From contig CAZKEF010000014.1 in assembly GCA_964551735.1 (NCBI GenBank), positions 54,820-118,819 on the forward strand: a DNA stretch of 64,000 nucleotides, in the 5' to 3' direction. Below the pieces are notes generated by a model. It did not search any database and had not been told where the DNA came from. It was given only the letters and a program-made list of their open reading frames with translations. Within the stretch, counting starts at the first letter, position 1. Every line of letters starts with the position of its first letter. The stretch is from an uncultured Anaerolineales bacterium (GTDB taxonomy: Bacteria > Chloroflexota > Anaerolineae > CG2-30-64-16). Shown piece after piece: positions 18,159 through 23,052 of the stretch. The position numbers and the translations under genes were made by a program.

Positions 18159-20135
18159 TCACCCTCGCCCTGATTGCGCGGCAGCCCCGATCAACACATC
18201 CAACCCCAGGGCCGCCAGCCGCTCCGGCGTCGGGACACCATCCGCTGTCCACCCCATGCGCGCATACCACGTCTGCCGGGCCTGACAAAAGGCTTCTTCG
18301 GTGATCGCAGCGCCGGCCAGCGGGCCTTCGGTGAACGCCTGCATCACCCGGTTGGGCAGCCGGTCGTCCGCGGCGGTCAGCCCTTCGCGCAGGTTGAAGA
18401 CCCGGGACAGTTGCTGGGCCCGCTCACCCACGGCCAGGATATCAGCCAGCCCGTACTCGTGGCCAGTCACGCCGCTGATCGCTTGGGCCAGGTGGGCGTA
18501 GTCGTAAGGGTAAAACATGCACGTAATGGCGCAGTCCTGGAAGTGCTGCCAGTTGACCTCGTGATAGAACAACTCCATCTTCTCCGGACCCAGCGGCTGC
18601 AGCTCTGAGGGTGAGGCGCTGTTGGCCGGCAGCGGCCCGACGGAATACACCGCGTTGACACGCGCCAGACTCTCGCCGGGGCTGCTGTAACTGGTGTCAT
18701 GAATGTTCATCATGTGGTCGGCGCCCACGGGCGCGACCGCGTAGCCGACGCCCAGGGCGTGCTTCAGCCGCGGCTCGTGCATGGGCAGCTCCTGGCCCTT
18801 CACCTCCACGGTGTATGCCTCGGCCCCGCCGCCGATCCACGCCGCCAGACGCCGCGTGCCTTCGGCCATCGGCGCGCCGAAACCGCGGCGGTGGGCGATC
18901 AGGTCCACGGCCTCCACCAGGGCCGCGGCATCGCCCCAGCGCGGCAGGAAGCCGCCGGTGCGCTCCGCGGTCAGCAGGCCGCGCTCGACGCACTCCATGA
19001 CAAACGCGATGGTCATGCCGGTGCTGATGGTGTCCAGCCCCCACCGCGCGCACAGTTCGTTGGCCTTGCACACCGCCACCAGGTCATCCACGCCGCACGC
19101 GCTGCCCAGGCCGCCCAACGTCTCATACTCCGGCCCGCCGTAGACTGGCTCGATGCGTTCCACGGCCGGCGTGGGCGTACGCAGGCCACTCTCGGTCCAC
19201 GCCGCCAGGTGTTCCGGCGTGGCCTCAGCATCATATGCCACAACCTGCTTGCACGAAATGGGGCAGACCTGGCACGAGTCGCGGCCGGTCAGGATCGTGG
19301 TGTGCATCGTTTTGCCGCTGATGGCCGCAGCGCCCGAGAAGCTGGCATCCTGGAAATTGCGGGTGGGCAGGCCGCCAACCCGGTTCAAATAGGTGACGCT
19401 GCCGGGGGTGCCCATCTGCACAGCCCAACCGGAAAGCTCCTTGTAGTTGTCGCCGAGCCATTTGGACACCGGTAGCACACGCTTGCGGTCGGCCACCGGC
19501 ACGTTGCGCGTGCCGCGCACCGCCACCGCCTTCAACCGCTTGCTGCCCATCACCGCGCCCAGGCCGTTGCGGCCGGCCGCCCGGTTGACATCGTGCATCA
19601 CCGCAGCATAGCGCACCCCGTTTTCGCCCGCCACGCCGCACTGAGCCACCCGAATCTTCGCGTCCCCCAGCTCGTCTCGGATGGTCCGCTCGACGTACGC
19701 GGTATCTCGACCCCACAGATAATTGGCGGGCCGAATGGCAACCTCGCCATCGCGGATCCACAGATACACCGGCGCGGCCGCGCGGCCATGCACCACCAGG
19801 GCATCAAAGCCGGTCCGCTTGAATTCGTGGCCCCACCACCCGCCAGCCTCCGAGCTGCCCAGGCCACCGGTGAGCGGGCTCTTGCCGCCCACGCCGTGGC
19901 GGCCGCTGCCGGGCAGGTTGGTCCCTTGCATGACGCCCGGCGCGAAGATCAGCAGGTTATCCGGCCCCAGCGGGTCGGCCCCGGCCGGCAGATCGCGCAA
20001 CAGCAGATACGCGACCAGGCCGCGGCCCCCCACCAACTTGAGATACAGATCATCGGGCGGCGTCTCCACCCAGGTCTTGCCGCTTGTGAGATCGACATGC
20101 AGGATCTTGCCCCACGTACCACCAACCATCATCAT
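18159..20135 (-). CDS. Aldehyde:ferredoxin oxidoreductase (tungsten/molybdopterin AOR family)
   Basis: 658 aa with the AOR N-terminal domain GKILHVDLTSGK, the Cys ligands for the 4Fe-4S cluster and the pterin-binding C-terminal domain. Confidence 0.8.
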   Translation of the reverse strand: MMMVGGTWGKILHVDLTSGKTWVETPPDDLYLKLVGGRGLVAYLLLRDLPAGADPLGPDNLLIFAPGVMQGTNLPGSGRHGVGGKSPLTGGLGSSEAGGWWGHEFKRTGFDALVVHGRAAAPVYLWIRDGEVAIRPANYLWGRDTAYVERTIRDELGDAKIRVAQCGVAGENGVRYAAVMHDVNRAAGRNGLGAVMGSKRLKAVAVRGTRNVPVADRKRVLPVSKWLGDNYKELSGWAVQMGTPGSVTYLNRVGGLPTRNFQDASFSGAAAISGKTMHTTILTGRDSCQVCPISCKQVVAYDAEATPEHLAAWTESGLRTPTPAVERIEPVYGGPEYETLGGLGSACGVDDLVAVCKANELCARWGLDTISTGMTIAFVMECVERGLLTAERTGGFLPRWGDAAALVEAVDLIAHRRGFGAPMAEGTRRLAAWIGGGAEAYTVEVKGQELPMHEPRLKHALGVGYAVAPVGADHMMNIHDTSYSSPGESLARVNAVYSVGPLPANSASPSELQPLGPEKMELFYHEVNWQHFQDCAITCMFYPYDYAHLAQAISGVTGHEYGLADILAVGERAQQLSRVFNLREGLTAADDRLPNRVMQAFTEGPLAGAAITEEAFCQARQTWYARMGWTADGVPTPERLAALGLDVLIGAAAQSGRG

Positions 20136-20155
20136 CGATAGCCTCCCTATCAGGA

Positions 20156-20374
20156 TTAACCCCCGCCGACCGCGGGCAACAGCTCAATCACATCATCATC
20201 TTGCAGCGCTGTCTCCCAACTGGCCAGGCGGCCATTGACCAGGATCATCACACCCGTGCGCAACGACAGGCGCAGCATGCCCACCGCCTCCGCCACGGTG
20301 CGCGCGCCATCCACCGCGGCGGAGGTGACAGCCGGAGCCGGTATCAAGGCATGGCTCTTGACGACAACAGACAT
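20156..20374 (-). CDS. MoaD/ThiS-family sulfur carrier protein (C-terminal GG)
   Basis: Small ORF MSVVVKSHALIP...LLPAVGGG ending in Gly-Gly, directly downstream of the AOR gene. Confidence 0.55.
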   Translation of the reverse strand: MSVVVKSHALIPAPAVTSAAVDGARTVAEAVGMLRLSLRTGVMILVNGRLASWETALQDDDVIELLPAVGGG

Positions 20375-20574
20375 GATTGAAATCCCAGAACAAGGTCTTT
20401 GCACATTGAGAGAACGAACAAATGCTAAGTCTACACCGTCTCACGCACAGGCGCAAACTCTGGCCCCGGCCGGGGCCGATGGGCTCTCTTTGTATCCACC
20501 CCCAAGCCGTTCGCGCATGGGCACGACTTATGCTATACTATCCCCTCGATCACCGGTTCCAACTGGAGGCACCC

Positions 20575-21132
20575 ATGAACATCTTCAACCGTGTGTTGGT
20601 CGTTTTGCTGCTGATCCTGTTGCTGGCCCTGGCGGTGCTGATCGCCATCCTGCCCATCCAGACCGTGCAGGCGGTCGAGGCCGCCATGCGCAACTTCGGC
20701 GCCTTTCTGGCCAACACTGAGACATCGCACCTCTGGCTGTTCGTCATTGCGCGTGTCGCACTGGTGCTGATTGCCCTGGCCGTCATCCTGCCGCTGCTGT
20801 GGGGCGAACTGAAACCGCGGCGGCCCAAGGCGGTCCACGTGCTCACCGAGACGGGCAGCAAAGCCAGCGTCACCACCGACTCAGTGGCCCGGCGGCTAAC
20901 GTGGCATATTGACCAGTTGGCTGACGTCATCTCGGTGACACCCGATGTGACGGCCAGCGGCAAGGCGGTCAACGTCGTGTTGAACCTGGAGACCCAACCG
21001 GAGATTGACGTGCCGATGAAGACCGATGAGGTGGTGCGCGTGGCTCGCGAGGTGATCGTGGAGCGCATGGGCCTTCAACTCGGCAAGGTTGATGTCCGCA
21101 TCAAACATGCGCCCTATCAGGATATTGCGTGA
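20575..21132 (+). CDS. AmaP-like membrane protein (N-terminal TM segments plus Asp23/Gls24-like domain)
   Basis: GGAGG SD before the ATG. Hydrophobic N-terminus MNIFNRVLVVLLLILLLALAVL, then a C-terminal Asp23-like region. Confidence 0.5.
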   Translation: MNIFNRVLVVLLLILLLALAVLIAILPIQTVQAVEAAMRNFGAFLANTETSHLWLFVIARVALVLIALAVILPLLWGELKPRRPKAVHVLTETGSKASVTTDSVARRLTWHIDQLADVISVTPDVTASGKAVNVVLNLETQPEIDVPMKTDEVVRVAREVIVERMGLQLGKVDVRIKHAPYQDIA

Positions 21133-21728
21133 GCACAGCGCTCAATCCATCTCAGCCATCCAGTGACGCAACACCGGCCCCTCAGTCCCCTGAGGCAGTG
21201 GGCCCGGCGCCTCAGGGGACCGCGTTACGCGCCCTGCTGGAAAGCTTGCTCTTCGTCGCGCCCGTGCCCACGCCGGTCGAACGGCTGGCCCAAGTGATCG
21301 GCCTGACAACCGAGCAGATCGAGGCTGCGTTGGCTGACCTGACGGCCGCCTACCTCGCTGAAGATCGCGGGCTCCGGCTGCTGCGCAAAGCGGATCGCGT
21401 CCACCTGACCACCGCGCCCCAGGCCAGCGCGCACATCGAGCGTTTTCTGGGGCTAGATCTGAGCAGCAGGCTCTCCAACGCTGCGCTGGAAACGCTGGCC
21501 GTCATCGCCTACCGGCAGCCGTTGACGCGCGCCCAAATCGAGGCGGTACGCGGGGTCAACTGCGACGGCGTCCTGCGCACCCTCCTGGCCCGCGAACTTA
21601 TCGAACCTGTGGGCCGGTTGGAGCAGGCAGGCAGGCCGATCCTGTACGGCACGACCGTCCAATTCCTCCACTACTTCGGCCTGGAAAGCCTGGAGCGCCT
21701 CCCCCCACTGCCCGCCAGCGAAAGCTGA
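21129..21728 (+). CDS. scpB: Segregation and condensation protein B
   Basis: ScpB winged-helix repeats: LLESLLFVAPVPTPVERLAQVIGLT and ALETLAVIAYRQPLTRAQIEAVRGVNCDGVLRTLLARELIE. Confidence 0.8.
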   Translation: MSTALNPSQPSSDATPAPQSPEAVGPAPQGTALRALLESLLFVAPVPTPVERLAQVIGLTTEQIEAALADLTAAYLAEDRGLRLLRKADRVHLTTAPQASAHIERFLGLDLSSRLSNAALETLAVIAYRQPLTRAQIEAVRGVNCDGVLRTLLARELIEPVGRLEQAGRPILYGTTVQFLHYFGLESLERLPPLPASES

Positions 21729-21775
21729 AAGGTAACACGCCCTTAAACGTAAAACGCGCTACTTACCTTTCAGCC
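21723..21775 (+). terminator. Perfect 12-bp stem hairpin (GCTGAAAGGTAA...TTACCTTTCAGC) starting at the scpB stop codon
   Basis: Inverted repeat seen directly. No downstream U-run. Confidence 0.4.
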
Positions 21776-21844
21776 GTTGTGCGCTAAGCTACTCATGAGA
21801 TCATGAGCCCGGGCTCCGAATCGGGCTCCGCACAGGAGCACCTT

Positions 21845-22612
21845 ATGTCCGAAAATCTGTGGGCACTGCGTGAACAACGGAAATTGAGCGTTGCAATGCT
21901 GGCCGGCCGAGCCGGCCTGCCTATCGGCCTGATCATGGAATACGAATCGGGCCAGCGCAGCATTGACGTGCGACATATCGCGCGGTTGGCACGCGCGTTG
22001 TATGTCGAAGAAACCGCGATCCGCCTGCACTCCGACCCGCGACCGGGCTCAGGCCCCTTGGAGCGGGCGTCGCGTCGCGCAGACGAGCGGCCCTCTCGGC
22101 CGACGGGTGAAACGGCGGAGGCTGCGCCCCCCGCGCAGCGCGAGCGGCCCGCACGCCCCCCCCGGCCTGCCCAGGCCCCGCGGCCACCCTTACCAGCTCG
22201 ACCGAGCCAGATCGCACATCTACAAGACCTGCTGCAGCGGTTGGGACGCAGCCAGGCCGAGCTCGAGGCGCAACTGGGCCAACCGCTCGCTGAGCTGGAT
22301 CGCCTCAGCGCCAGCAGGGCACTGGTCGCGCTGCAAACCGAACTCCGCGAAGGCGCCACACCGAACAGGCATCGCGCCTATCTGCCCGAAGCGGTAGACC
22401 AGTTCGAGCACAAGTACCTGGCGGCCGCGCAAGGGTCCGGCGCTACCCTGCGCTTCAACCTGTTCGACGGCACAACCCTCAGCGGCCAGGTGAGCGGCTA
22501 CGGCCCCTACAGCATAACCGTCCGCCAGTCCGACGGCAGCGAGACTACACTGAACAAGCTAGCGCTGGTCAGCTACACGCGTCCGCCGGGCAGCGAGGAG
22601 CCAACCCCATGA
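21845..22612 (+). CDS. HTH (XRE-like) domain protein with Pro-rich linker and C-terminal Sm/Hfq-like domain
   Basis: N-terminus LREQRKLSVAMLAGRAGLPIGLIMEYESGQRS is HTH-like. The C-terminus LRFNLFDGTTLSGQVSGYGPYSITVRQSDGSETTLNKLALVSY matches the Hfq Sm1/Sm2 pattern. AGGAG SD present. Confidence 0.5.
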   Translation: MSENLWALREQRKLSVAMLAGRAGLPIGLIMEYESGQRSIDVRHIARLARALYVEETAIRLHSDPRPGSGPLERASRRADERPSRPTGETAEAAPPAQRERPARPPRPAQAPRPPLPARPSQIAHLQDLLQRLGRSQAELEAQLGQPLAELDRLSASRALVALQTELREGATPNRHRAYLPEAVDQFEHKYLAAAQGSGATLRFNLFDGTTLSGQVSGYGPYSITVRQSDGSETTLNKLALVSYTRPPGSEEPTP

Positions 22613-23052
22613 GCCTGGGCGACATGCTGCGCGTGCTGCGCGCCAAGCGCGGCGGTATCACACCGCTTGACATCGAGGCTGCCCTGCCCGACCTGCCCAA
22701 AGGCATTTATCGGCAGATAGAGCAGCGCTACCGCGCGGTCGGCGACGACGCGTCCATCCGCCTGCTGGCCGATTTCTACGGCGTGCGGTTCGAAGATCTG
22801 CGTTGGCGGTTGGACTGGCCGCGCAAGGCGTTGAGCCGCGCGCTGGTCCATGCGCAGCAAAACGATCTGCCCATCACCCTACACCTGTGGGACGGCCGGA
22901 CAGTCACGGGGAAAGTCATCTGGTGGGACCTGGGCGCCGCGGCGCTGACCACCGATGAGGGCGAAATCGTGGTGCAGCGGCATGCTGCGGAGCAGTGGGA
23001 GCCGCGCGCGCCGGAAGCAAGCGATGACACGGGCGAGCTAGAGGCGGAATGA
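22609..23052 (+). CDS. Paralogous HTH-like plus Sm/Hfq-like domain protein (ATGA overlap with upstream gene)
   Basis: C-terminus ITLHLWDGRTVTGKVIWWDLGAAALTTDEGEIVVQRHAAEQW has the same Sm-like pattern. 4-nt start/stop overlap. Confidence 0.45.
   Translation: MSLGDMLRVLRAKRGGITPLDIEAALPDLPKGIYRQIEQRYRAVGDDASIRLLADFYGVRFEDLRWRLDWPRKALSRALVHAQQNDLPITLHLWDGRTVTGKVIWWDLGAAALTTDEGEIVVQRHAAEQWEPRAPEASDDTGELEAE

What the first reader, a model, noticed from the sequence alone, without database searches (positions are those of the whole stretch)
21845..23052. Tandem pair of HTH-domain proteins carrying C-terminal Sm/Hfq-like domains
Both ORFs start with a helix-turn-helix-like segment and end with a ~45-aa segment matching the Hfq Sm1/Sm2 pattern. 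Compare LRFNLFDGTTLSGQVSGYGPYSITVRQSDGSETTLNKLALVSY and ITLHLWDGRTVTGKVIWWDLGAAALTTDEGEIVVQRH with Hfq [39 protein letters not shown]. The first has a long Pro/Arg-rich linker. The genes overlap by ATGA and follow scpB. Fusion of a DNA-binding HTH to an Sm fold is uncommon; it suggests an RNA- or nucleic-acid-binding regulator pair, possibly nucleoid-associated.
Basis: partly seen in the sequence, partly recalled or inferred. Interest (0 to 1): 0.55.

Follow-up and report, generated by a model that had tools for sequence, protein, structure and literature searches.

The report
Paired HTH–Hfq fusion proteins in Anaerolineae
Two overlapping genes each encode a DNA-binding helix-turn-helix domain fused to an Hfq-type (Sm) ring-forming domain; the pair is conserved across the Anaerolineae, is uncharacterised, and may be a ring complex that binds DNA at several points.

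Summary

A and B are paralogues in both domains. A also carries a basic Pro/Arg-rich linker and an uncharacterised three-helix domain. B is acidic.

The pair is adjacent in 76 of 77 Anaerolineae species genomes and in 65 of 66 metagenome loci. The overlap is 4 nt in 67 of 74 genome loci. scpB lies upstream in about two thirds.

Canonical Hfq RNA and DNA contact residues are only partly kept, and in a complementary way. A keeps F42→Y and K56. B keeps K56→R and H57. The rim arginines are lost in both.

Most likely (inferred, not shown) the Hfq domains build a ring, possibly mixed A/B, that displays several HTH domains. Databases already label B "Hfq-like", but I found no paper on it. This is a new variant of a known kind. 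Interest is about 0.6.

The parts
21845..22612 (+). Gene A: 255-aa XRE-HTH / basic linker / three-helix domain / Hfq-fold protein (pI 9.6)
   Evidence: ORF. An exact copy, P0121, and 287 homologues begin at the same start. AlphaFold2 mean pLDDT 83.8.
21845..22024 (+). A residues 1-60: XRE/Cro-C1 helix-turn-helix domain
22025..22198 (+). A residues 61-118: disordered, basic Pro/Arg-rich linker
   Evidence: pLDDT below 50 for residues 75-92. 26% Pro, net +4. Family median net charge +6, length 32-260 residues.
22199..22360 (+). A residues 119-172: conserved three-helix domain with no known relatives (motif R-x-S-Q-x-x-H-L ... G-K-P-L ... E-A-S-x-L-L-x-x-L-Q)
   Evidence: Helices 120-133, 137-144 and 153-171; 10-residue block pLDDT means 91-97. 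Residues R119, Q122, H125, G145 and P147 are invariant or nearly so. No Pfam or PDB match.
22361..22582 (+). A residues 173-246: invariant R-x-R-A-Y-L-P-E-x-V-D-x-F-E motif and Hfq-type Sm domain (helix 182-198, strands 201-245; Sm2 position reads N-K-L-A)
22609..23052 (+). Gene B: 147-aa diverged HTH / Hfq-fold protein with acidic tail (pI 5.1)
   Evidence: ORF. 593 homologues. AlphaFold2 pLDDT 87.4, pTM 0.75.
22609..22815 (+). B residues 1-69: five-helix diverged XRE-type HTH (invariant E-Q-R-Y-R after helix 3)
   Evidence: Five helices. HTH_31 in 29 of 56 members. hhalign against the A HTH 86%, E 5e-6. The window copy itself has no Pfam HTH hit.
22816..23007 (+). B residues 70-133: Hfq-type Sm domain (helix 72-84, strands 88-131; W-W-D-L-G-A motif and Sm2 motif Q-R-H-A, invariant)
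   Evidence: PDB profile hit to Caulobacter Hfq E 1.5e-5. Foldseek top 50 all Hfq. Hfq_1 in 53 of 56 members. hhalign 96.7%. Conservation.
23008..23052 (+). B residues 134-147 and stop: disordered acidic tail (net -6)
   Evidence: pLDDT below 50 for residues 138-147. Net negative tail in 50 of 76 orthologues.
22595..22612 (+). Translational-coupling junction: GAGGAG Shine-Dalgarno inside the end of A, then the ATGA stop/start overlap
   Evidence: Sequence. The 4-nt overlap is kept in 67 of 74 genome loci.
21805..21828 (+). Conserved 8-bp stem-loop in the 5' leader of A, directly upstream of the Shine-Dalgarno (21834-21838)
   Evidence: RNAalifold finds 8 pairs, 5 with compensatory changes in 14 species. 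98.2% of cells are paired, 0 of 500 shuffles reach this, and slid registers give 45% or less.
21749..21790 (+). Conserved intergenic boxes: GTAnAACGCGCTACT (21749-21763) and a -10-like T-A-n-n-n-T (21785-21790). Possibly a promoter or operator for A-B.
   Evidence: Invariant columns in a 14-species alignment. No function tested. The box occurs only once in the window.
21129..21728 (+). scpB, the upstream gene in the same orientation. This is frequent but not universal context, and it is not shown to be part of the system.
   Evidence: PF04079 E 1.3e-51. Upstream of A in 49 of 77 genome loci and in 33 of 38 informative metagenome loci.

Best explanation
**Shown.** A and B are paralogous two-domain proteins. 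Each has an N-terminal XRE/Cro-C1-type helix-turn-helix domain and a C-terminal Hfq-type Sm domain. A has gained a basic Pro/Arg-rich disordered linker and a three-helix domain of unknown function. B is compact and acidic, with an acidic tail. The two genes are translationally coupled. They form an almost invariant pair in a housekeeping context across orders of the class Anaerolineae, often in an amaP-like / scpB / A / B gene string.

**Inferred.** As in Hfq, the Sm domains assemble into a ring through beta4-beta5 pairing. The ring may well contain both A and B. It carries several HTH domains plus the basic linkers of A. The complex would then be a multivalent DNA-binding regulator or nucleoid-associated factor. 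DNA contact would come from the HTH domains and the linker rather than from the Hfq core. The Hfq ring would serve mainly as the oligomerisation platform, and possibly as a secondary site for RNA or single-stranded nucleic acid. The conserved stem-loop and sequence boxes in the leader of A are candidate sites for autoregulation.
For: **Architecture**
- Hfq fold in both proteins.
- Paralogy in both domains: HTH against HTH 86%, E 5e-6; Hfq against Hfq 96.5%, E 9.6e-10.

**Obligate pairing and coupling**
- A lies directly upstream of B in 76 of 77 species genomes.
- B follows A in 65 of 66 informative metagenome loci.
- The 4-nt overlap is kept in 67 of 74 loci, and the Shine-Dalgarno for B lies inside A.

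**Ring competence**
- B keeps an invariant Q-R-H-A at the Sm2 motif. This includes the His equivalent to Hfq H57.
- A keeps an invariant K-L-A.
- The Sm1 glycines are kept in both proteins.

**Complementarity between A and B**
- F42 equivalent: Tyr in A, Gly in B.
- H57 equivalent: Leu in A, His in B.
- A has pI 9.6 and B has pI 5.1.
- Helix alpha1 of A carries invariant E182, D185 and E188. Helix alpha1 of B starts with R72 (invariant) and K73 (70 of 76).

**The Hfq core is unlikely to be the main nucleic-acid surface**
- Rim arginines R16/R17/R19, distal Y25, Q8 and the E. coli Hfq core dsDNA contacts (N13, R16, R17, Q41; PMC7144919) are not conserved.
- The Hfq domains are roughly neutral.

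**Core-genome rather than mobile**
- Neighbours are housekeeping genes.
- No viral contigs carry the pair.
- PADLOC and PHROGs give only generic HTH hits.

**Candidate cis elements:**
Against: - Ring formation, and a mixed ring in particular, rests on analogy and on genetic coupling.
- Tight pairing and translational coupling also fit two separate homo-oligomers, or a regulator with its partner.
- The HTH of B is diverged, and the window copy has no Pfam hit. It may not bind DNA.
- The recognition helix of A is only moderately conserved across the class.
- The putative operator box is found once in the window and is conserved only in the nearer clade.
- The stem-loop covaries in sequence, which points to an RNA structure rather than a protein-specific DNA palindrome.
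- scpB linkage is absent in roughly a third of genomes. A link to chromosome organisation is therefore only guilt by association.
- Partial retention of K56/H57/F42 equivalents leaves RNA binding possible.
Confidence: 0.5

Rival explanations
1. They are the true Hfq RNA chaperones of Anaerolineae. Each forms a homohexamer that binds small RNAs and mRNAs on its proximal and distal faces. The HTH domains are accessories, for example tethering riboregulation to the nucleoid or to nascent transcripts.
For: - B keeps R-H at the K56-H57 positions. A keeps Tyr at F42 and Lys at K56.
- B has an acidic C-terminal tail. This resembles the auto-inhibitory acidic tips described for some Hfq proteins (my own knowledge).
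- A conserved RNA stem-loop sits in the pair's own leader.
Against: - Neither protein alone has the full uridine pocket. Q8 becomes Glu in A and Leu in B. F42 becomes Gly in B. H57 becomes Leu in A.
- Rim arginines and distal Y25 are lost in both proteins.
- The Hfq domains are neutral to slightly acidic.
- The fused N-terminal HTH would sit on the proximal side, where alpha1 lies (inference).
- The closest sequence models include the cyanobacterial Hfq_1 type. That protein acts through binding to PilB1, and a role in sRNA action has not been shown for it (PMC4390875).
Confidence: 0.2
2. They are conventional one-component transcription factors. The Hfq-like barrel acts as a sensor or effector-binding and dimerisation domain. 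This would be analogous to the Sm-like WYL domain of HTH-WYL regulators (PafBC, DriD, BrxR, CapW). The pair would control a small local regulon, such as its own operon, scpB or the neighbouring genes.
For: - The HTH of A is closest to small specific regulators: controller C proteins, DdrO, SinR and CapH.
- Conserved intergenic boxes lie upstream of A.
- HTH plus a small beta-barrel sensor is an established design. [quoted passage not shown]
Against: - No WYL or WCX signature was found. The barrel is specifically Hfq-type, with its N-terminal helix and Sm2 motif.
- An almost invariant paralogous pair with a 4-nt overlap across a whole class is unusual for a local regulator.
- The neighbourhood varies outside the A-B core.
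- The box is conserved only in one clade and is not repeated in the window.
Confidence: 0.2
3. The pair is a mobile or selfish XRE-type module (toxin-antitoxin, phage repressor pair, or defence-system regulator), and the Hfq likeness is incidental.
For: XRE HTH domains are typical of antitoxins, phage repressors and defence regulators. A gives weak HTH-only hits to capH, RmrA and control-protein models and to PHROG regulators.
Against: - Single conserved locus in a housekeeping context (ScpB, thioesterase, PFK, PanB).
- Every recovered locus is from Anaerolineae/Chloroflexota, and gene order is conserved across the class.
- No viral contig encodes B.
- B has no PADLOC or PHROG hit.
- High sequence conservation: 42-91% identity across orders.
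Confidence: 0.03
4. The Sm/Hfq resemblance is a chance or compositional match, and the C-terminal regions are unrelated beta-rich segments.
For: The window copies score below Pfam and NCBIfam thresholds for every Hfq model. Pairwise identity to Hfq is only 16-26%.
Against: - Family-level profile hits.
- Profile-profile probabilities of 94-97%.
- High-confidence AlphaFold2 models whose best PDB matches are exclusively Hfq.
- Invariant motifs at the Sm1 and Sm2 positions across 72-76 species.
Confidence: 0.02

Closest known systems
Bacterial Hfq (Pfam PF17209, TIGR02383), the homohexameric Sm-like RNA chaperone that is also nucleoid-associated in E. coli
   Same: - Same fold: an N-terminal helix followed by a five-strand bent barrel. 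It is the best structural match for both proteins.
- Sm1 glycines are kept.
- The Sm2 motif is recognisable: Q-R-H-A in B and N-K-L-A in A, against Y-K-H-A in Hfq.
- B has an acidic C-terminal tail.
- E. coli Hfq also binds dsDNA and compacts DNA (PMC7144919, PMC6235962).
   Different: - The domain is fused to an N-terminal XRE HTH. Canonical Hfq is a single-domain protein of 70-110 aa.
- There are two diverged paralogues in an obligate gene pair.
- Q8, the rim arginines, distal Y25 and the DNA-contact residues are not conserved.
- F42 and H57 equivalents are each kept in only one paralogue.
- The window copies score below the curated cutoffs.
Cyanobacterial Hfq-related proteins (Pfam PF21979 Hfq_1; NCBIfam NF047718; structures 3HFO and 3HFN)
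   Same: - Hfq_1 is the best-scoring Pfam model for B: 53 of 56 members hit it, and the window copy scores E 0.0011.
- The W-x-D-L motif is shared with short cyanobacterial-type proteins such as P0274.
- Both have a divergent proximal site.
- It is a precedent for an Hfq fold that works mainly through protein-protein contacts, in that case with PilB1 (PMC4390875).
   Different: The cyanobacterial proteins are single-domain, about 70 aa, with no HTH and no paralogous partner gene. No pilB linkage is seen here.
XRE/Cro-C1 family HTH regulators (Pfam PF01381), especially restriction-modification controller C proteins (C.AhdI, C.BclI), DdrO and SinR
   Different: Known XRE regulators dimerise or tetramerise through helical, cupin, peptidase or similar C-terminal domains. 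I found none described with an Hfq domain.
HTH-WYL regulators (PafBC, DriD, BrxR, CapW, SiwR)
   Same: The design is the same: an HTH DNA-binding domain covalently linked to a small Sm-like/SH3-like beta-barrel that can bind nucleic-acid ligands (PMC10693628; also my own knowledge). This is a functional analogy.
   Different: There is a different barrel family, with no WYL hit in Pfam, a different HTH class (XRE rather than winged-helix HTH), no WCX domain, and no defence or DNA-damage gene context.
Eukaryotic Sm/Lsm hetero-heptamers
   Same: Paralogous Sm-fold subunits that arose by duplication and are always found together, with complementary divergence of ring-face residues. This would be the analogy if A and B form a mixed ring.

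Membership tests
Hfq family (PF17209 / TIGR02383) | Sm fold with an N-terminal alpha-helix followed by five strongly bent beta-strands | tested here: met
Hfq family (PF17209 / TIGR02383) | Sequence score above the curated model cutoff | tested here: not met
   For the window copies: B scores PF17209 14.3 bits (cutoff 27) and TIGR02383 12.4 bits (cutoff 61.7). A has no PF17209 hit at E of 1 or less. At family level, 27 of 56 B and 2 of 36 A members hit PF17209 at E of 0.01 or less. Profile-level homology is nevertheless significant.
Hfq family (PF17209 / TIGR02383) | Sm2 motif [YF]-K-H-A and the proximal uridine-pocket residues Q8, F42, K56, H57 (E. coli numbering) | tested here: not met
   A has E188, Y222, K238 and L239 at these positions. 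B has L75, G109, R124 and H125. Each paralogue keeps only two of the four.
Hfq family (PF17209 / TIGR02383) | Arginine-rich rim (R16, R17, R19) and distal-face Y25 | tested here: not met
   In the window copies A has Q196, G197, G199 (family majority at 197 is Glu) and N205 (family majority Thr). B has Q83, Q84, D86 (84 is Glu and 86 is Gly in the family majority) and H92 (a variable position: Glu/His/Tyr).
Hfq family (PF17209 / TIGR02383) | Homohexameric ring | not testable with these tools
Hfq family (PF17209 / TIGR02383) | RNA chaperone activity with sRNA and mRNA binding | not testable with these tools
   This needs biochemistry or RIP-seq.
Hfq-related, cyanobacterial type (PF21979 Hfq_1 / NF047718) | Sequence score above the curated cutoff | tested here: inconclusive
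   The window B scores 19.5 bits against cutoff 27 (E 0.0011), and NF047718 17.6 bits against 52. The window A scores 12.8 bits. However, 53 of 56 B homologues hit Hfq_1 (best E 2.4e-7), and many carry a precomputed PF21979 assignment.
XRE / Cro-C1 HTH (PF01381 HTH_3) | Sequence score above the gathering threshold; five-helix lambda-repressor-like fold | tested here: met
XRE / Cro-C1 HTH (PF01381 HTH_3) | The same feature, for protein B | tested here: inconclusive
   The window B has no Pfam HTH hit, even with residues 1-75 searched alone at E up to 10. 29 of 56 homologues hit HTH_31 (best 5.6e-6). hhalign to the A HTH gives 86%. A five-helix fold is predicted. No fold search was run on this domain alone.
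WYL-domain transcription regulators | WYL domain (PF13280) next to an HTH | tested here: not met
   Neither protein, nor any of the 92 family members scanned, gave a WYL hit.
Type II toxin-antitoxin, phage repressor or defence regulator XRE modules | Mobile or patchy distribution with a partner toxin or defence gene | tested here: not met
   The locus is a conserved core-genome locus. There are no viral loci. PADLOC and PHROGs give only generic HTH hits.

The most novel reading that the evidence does not exclude
A and B co-assemble into a heteromeric Hfq-type ring, for example alternating A3B3. This would be the first bacterial counterpart of the eukaryotic hetero-oligomeric Sm rings. The ring would carry a crown of sequence-reading HTH domains and basic tails. 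It would physically couple DNA (nucleoid or promoters, possibly together with SMC-ScpAB) to RNA bound at composite A/B pockets. Each paralogue would contribute half of the ancestral uridine-binding residues.
Probability: 0.25. Interest if true: 0.85.

Novelty: new variant of a known kind. Interest (0 to 1): 0.6.

Why it matters
[quoted passage not shown] Here evolution has joined an Hfq-type ring domain to a classical DNA-reading HTH. It has then duplicated the fusion and kept both copies translationally coupled throughout the Anaerolineae, a class abundant in digesters, sediments and wastewater.

If the rings form, this is a new way to build a multivalent DNA-binding regulator, or a DNA-RNA coupling complex. 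If the ring is mixed, it is the first heteromeric Sm ring known in bacteria. It would also give a function to a core, class-wide gene pair that automated annotation currently splits into "XRE regulator" and "Hfq-like protein".

The frequent operon link with scpB offers a testable lead towards chromosome organisation.

Full report
**1. What is in the sequence**

The finding covers two ORFs on the + strand. ORF A runs 21845-22612 (255 aa). A longer reading from 21803 exists, but all homologues begin MSENLW/MAENLW, and an AGGAG Shine-Dalgarno lies 6 nt upstream of the ATG at 21845. ORF B runs 22609-23052 (147 aa).

The two overlap by ATGA at 22609-22612. A GAGGAG Shine-Dalgarno for B lies inside the last codons of A.

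Upstream on the same strand are ScpB (21129-21728; PF04079, E 1.3e-51) and an AmaP-like membrane protein whose stop overlaps the scpB start. Downstream are a convergent 4HBT thioesterase and an ATP-grasp gene. Further neighbours are housekeeping genes: aldehyde:ferredoxin oxidoreductase, a ThiS-like protein, PFK and PanB. GC content is about 62-68% around the locus, with no compositional break.

**2. Domain architecture of A**

- **Linker.** Residues 61-118 are a disordered, basic, proline-rich linker. pLDDT is below 50 over residues 75-92. The segment is 26% Pro with net charge +4. Across the family the median net charge is +6 and the length is 32-260 residues.
- **Middle domain.** Residues 119-172 form a confidently predicted three-helix domain. 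Positions R119, Q122, H125, G145 and P147 are invariant or nearly so. It matches nothing in Pfam or the PDB.
- **Sequence-level support.** The window copy is sub-threshold (Hfq_1 E 0.13). The family profile finds B. subtilis Hfq at E 0.015. A profile-profile comparison with a small canonical Hfq alignment gives 93.6% probability, E 2.2e-7.

**3. Domain architecture of B**

The AlphaFold2 model has pLDDT 87.4 and pTM 0.75. It shows five helices (residues 3-69) running directly into a helix (72-84) plus five strands (88-131), then a disordered acidic tail.

For the Hfq part:

- The family profile hits more than 30 solved Hfq sequences. The best is Caulobacter Hfq at E 1.5e-5.
- 53 of 56 homologues hit Pfam Hfq_1 and 27 of 56 hit Hfq.
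- The Foldseek top 50 are all Hfq.
- hhalign against canonical Hfq gives 96.7%, E 3.8e-10.

The N-terminal domain is a diverged XRE-type HTH. The window copy has no Pfam hit. However, 29 of 56 homologues hit HTH_31, and its profile aligns to the A HTH at 86% probability, E 5e-6.

The A and B Hfq domains align at 96.5%, E 9.6e-10. A and B are therefore paralogues with the same HTH-Hfq plan, and A carries an insertion of a linker plus a three-helix domain.

**4. Conservation**

- B has 593 and A has 287 homologue clusters at 90% identity. Those that carry an organism label are mostly Anaerolineae/Chloroflexota metagenome-assembled genomes, apart from one bin labelled Nitrososphaerales archaeon (P0024/P0226).
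- A scan of one genome per species found 77 loci. All are Anaerolineae or Chloroflexota, including Caldilineales, Ardenticatenaceae and Candidatus Amarolinea.
- A lies immediately upstream of B in 76 of these 77. The exception is cut by a contig end.
- The overlap is exactly 4 nt in 67 of 74 measurable pairs.
- Searching from A instead, 65 of 66 informative metagenome loci have B right after it.
- ScpB is upstream in 49 of 77 genome loci and in 33 of 38 informative metagenome loci. In several genomes it is only 7-45 bp away. It is absent within 5 kb in the most distant clade.
- Clustering of all neighbouring ORFs found no other gene as consistently linked as A and B are to each other.
- No viral contig encodes B. 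Defence and phage libraries give only generic HTH hits.

**5. Residue-level comparison with Hfq**

This uses E. coli numbering. The Caulobacter and Aquifex segments were copied. The alignments are, and conservation over 72-76 species is.

| E. coli Hfq position | Role | A | B |
|---|---|---|---|
| G29, G34 | Sm1 glycines | G209, G214 | G96, G101 |
| Q8 | proximal | E188 (invariant) | L75 |
| R16 / R17 / R19 | rim | Q196 / G197 (mostly E in the family) / G199 | Q83 / Q84 (mostly E in the family) / D86 (G or D in the family) |
| Y25 | distal | N205 (T in most of the family) | H92 (variable) |
| F42 | proximal | Y222 (97%) | G109 (97%) |
| K56 | proximal, Sm2 | K238 (100%) | R124 (100%) |
| H57 | proximal, Sm2 | L239 (100%) | H125 (100%) |

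The residues that contact dsDNA in the E. coli Hfq core structure (N13, R16, R17, Q41; PMC7144919) are not conserved in either protein.

So each paralogue keeps a different half of the proximal pocket. Charge is also complementary:

- A has pI 9.6 and B has pI 5.1.
- Helix alpha1 of A carries invariant E182, D185 and E188.
- Helix alpha1 of B begins with R72 (invariant) and K73 (70 of 76).
- B has a net-negative tail in 50 of 76 species.

**6. Mechanism: what is shown and what is inferred**

Shown:

- the architecture;
- the paralogy;
- the obligate, translationally coupled pairing;
- the core-genome status.

Inferred, by analogy with every characterised Hfq/Sm protein: the Sm domains oligomerise into a ring. 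Several features make a mixed A/B ring attractive:

- the nearly invariant 1:1 genetic coupling;
- the complementary residue losses;
- the opposite charges.

Canonical nucleic-acid contact residues of the Hfq core are largely lost, and the cores are near neutral. I therefore think nucleic-acid contact comes mainly from the HTH domains and the basic linker of A. This would give a multivalent DNA-binding regulator or nucleoid-associated complex, with the ring as the scaffold.

The frequent operon position after scpB is compatible with a role in chromosome organisation, but this is only guilt by association.

Rival readings are scored in the report sections:

- a true RNA chaperone with HTH accessories;
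- a WYL-like one-component regulator;
- a mobile XRE module;
- chance similarity.

**7. Cis elements noticed**

In the nearer clade (14 species aligned), the scpB-A spacer contains three conserved elements:

- a box GTAnAACGCGCTACT at window 21749-21763;
- an invariant T-A-n-n-n-T, which resembles a -10 element, at 21785-21790;
- an 8-bp stem-loop directly 5' of the Shine-Dalgarno, at 21805-21828.

Five of the eight stem pairs show compensatory changes. In all, 98.2% of cells are paired, 0 of 500 shuffles reach this, and slid registers give 45% or less.

The arm sequences change while pairing is kept. This points to an RNA (or DNA hairpin) structure rather than a fixed protein operator. Rfam has no match. 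The stem-loop could be an autoregulatory target or an mRNA-stabilising 5' hairpin. Neither possibility was tested.

**8. Comparison with what is known, and novelty**

- **Existing annotation.** Many B homologues are already labelled "sRNA-binding regulator protein Hfq" (JGI) or "Hfq-like protein" (NCBI), and some carry PF21979. A homologues are labelled only "XRE-family HTH", with a single exception.
- **Literature.** I found no paper that describes an HTH-Hfq fusion, or Hfq in Anaerolineae.
- **Other architectures.** A profile of the B Hfq domain retrieves only 41 cluster representatives among 1.84 billion. These are essentially the B family, plus a few short cyanobacterial-type and tandem Hfq proteins.
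- **Closest known kinds.** These are canonical Hfq, cyanobacterial Hfq_1 (which works via PilB1 binding; PMC4390875), XRE regulators and, as a functional analogy, HTH-WYL regulators.

Under strict membership criteria the window proteins fail the curated Hfq cutoffs and lack several defining residues. I therefore describe them as Hfq-fold homologues, not as Hfq. I rate this a new variant of a known kind.

**9. Verdict**

Function is unproven. Interest is 0.6: the architecture is unusual, class-wide and uncharacterised, and it makes a concrete hypothesis testable (a ring-scaffolded, possibly heteromeric DNA-binding Hfq complex). Part of it is already recognised by automated annotation, and the key mechanistic step, ring assembly, could not be tested here.

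Noticed in passing
window 21805-21828 (with the Shine-Dalgarno at 21834-21838 and the ATG at 21845): There is a conserved 8-bp stem-loop in the 5' leader of gene A, directly upstream of the ribosome-binding site. Five of its eight pairs show compensatory changes across 14 species. There is no Rfam match. It may be an autoregulatory or mRNA-stabilising element.
   Followed up: yes
window 21749-21763 and 21785-21790: Two conserved intergenic boxes lie after the scpB stop: GTAnAACGCGCTACT, and a -10-like T-A-n-n-n-T with invariant T, A and T. This suggests A-B has its own promoter or operator, in addition to read-through from scpB. The box is not repeated elsewhere in the window.
   Followed up: partly
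window 20575-21132 and 21129-21728: scpB is preceded by an AmaP-like membrane-anchor gene (NCBIfam AmaP E 1.8e-10, below cutoff) whose stop overlaps the scpB start. It is not preceded by scpA. The AmaP-like / ScpB order recurs in about 39 of 77 related genomes. The location of scpA was not looked for.
   Followed up: partly
window 22199-22360 (A residues 119-172): This highly conserved three-helix domain (R-x-S-Q-x-x-H-L...G-K-P-L...E-A-S-x-L-L-x-x-L-Q) has no Pfam or PDB relatives. It is a candidate new domain, specific to the A paralogue.
   Followed up: partly
L040, L041, L042 and L055 (Caldilineales-like loci), gene A: In these genomes A is 399-469 aa instead of about 250. The disordered linker between the HTH and the three-helix domain has expanded, to as much as about 260 residues.
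   Followed up: no
proteins P0264, P0266 and P0278: These are single-chain tandem Hfq proteins of 124-178 aa, with two canonical Y-K-H-A Sm domains in one polypeptide. They are another route to a pseudo-heteromeric Hfq ring, and probably correspond to the 176-position NCBIfam model PRK14091.
   Followed up: no
window 18159-20404 (- strand): An aldehyde:ferredoxin oxidoreductase (AFOR_N and AFOR_C domains, E 1e-74 to 1e-108) is preceded on the - strand by a small ThiS/MoaD-like protein that ends in Gly-Gly. This pair is divergent from the amaP-scpB-A-B string.
   Followed up: partly
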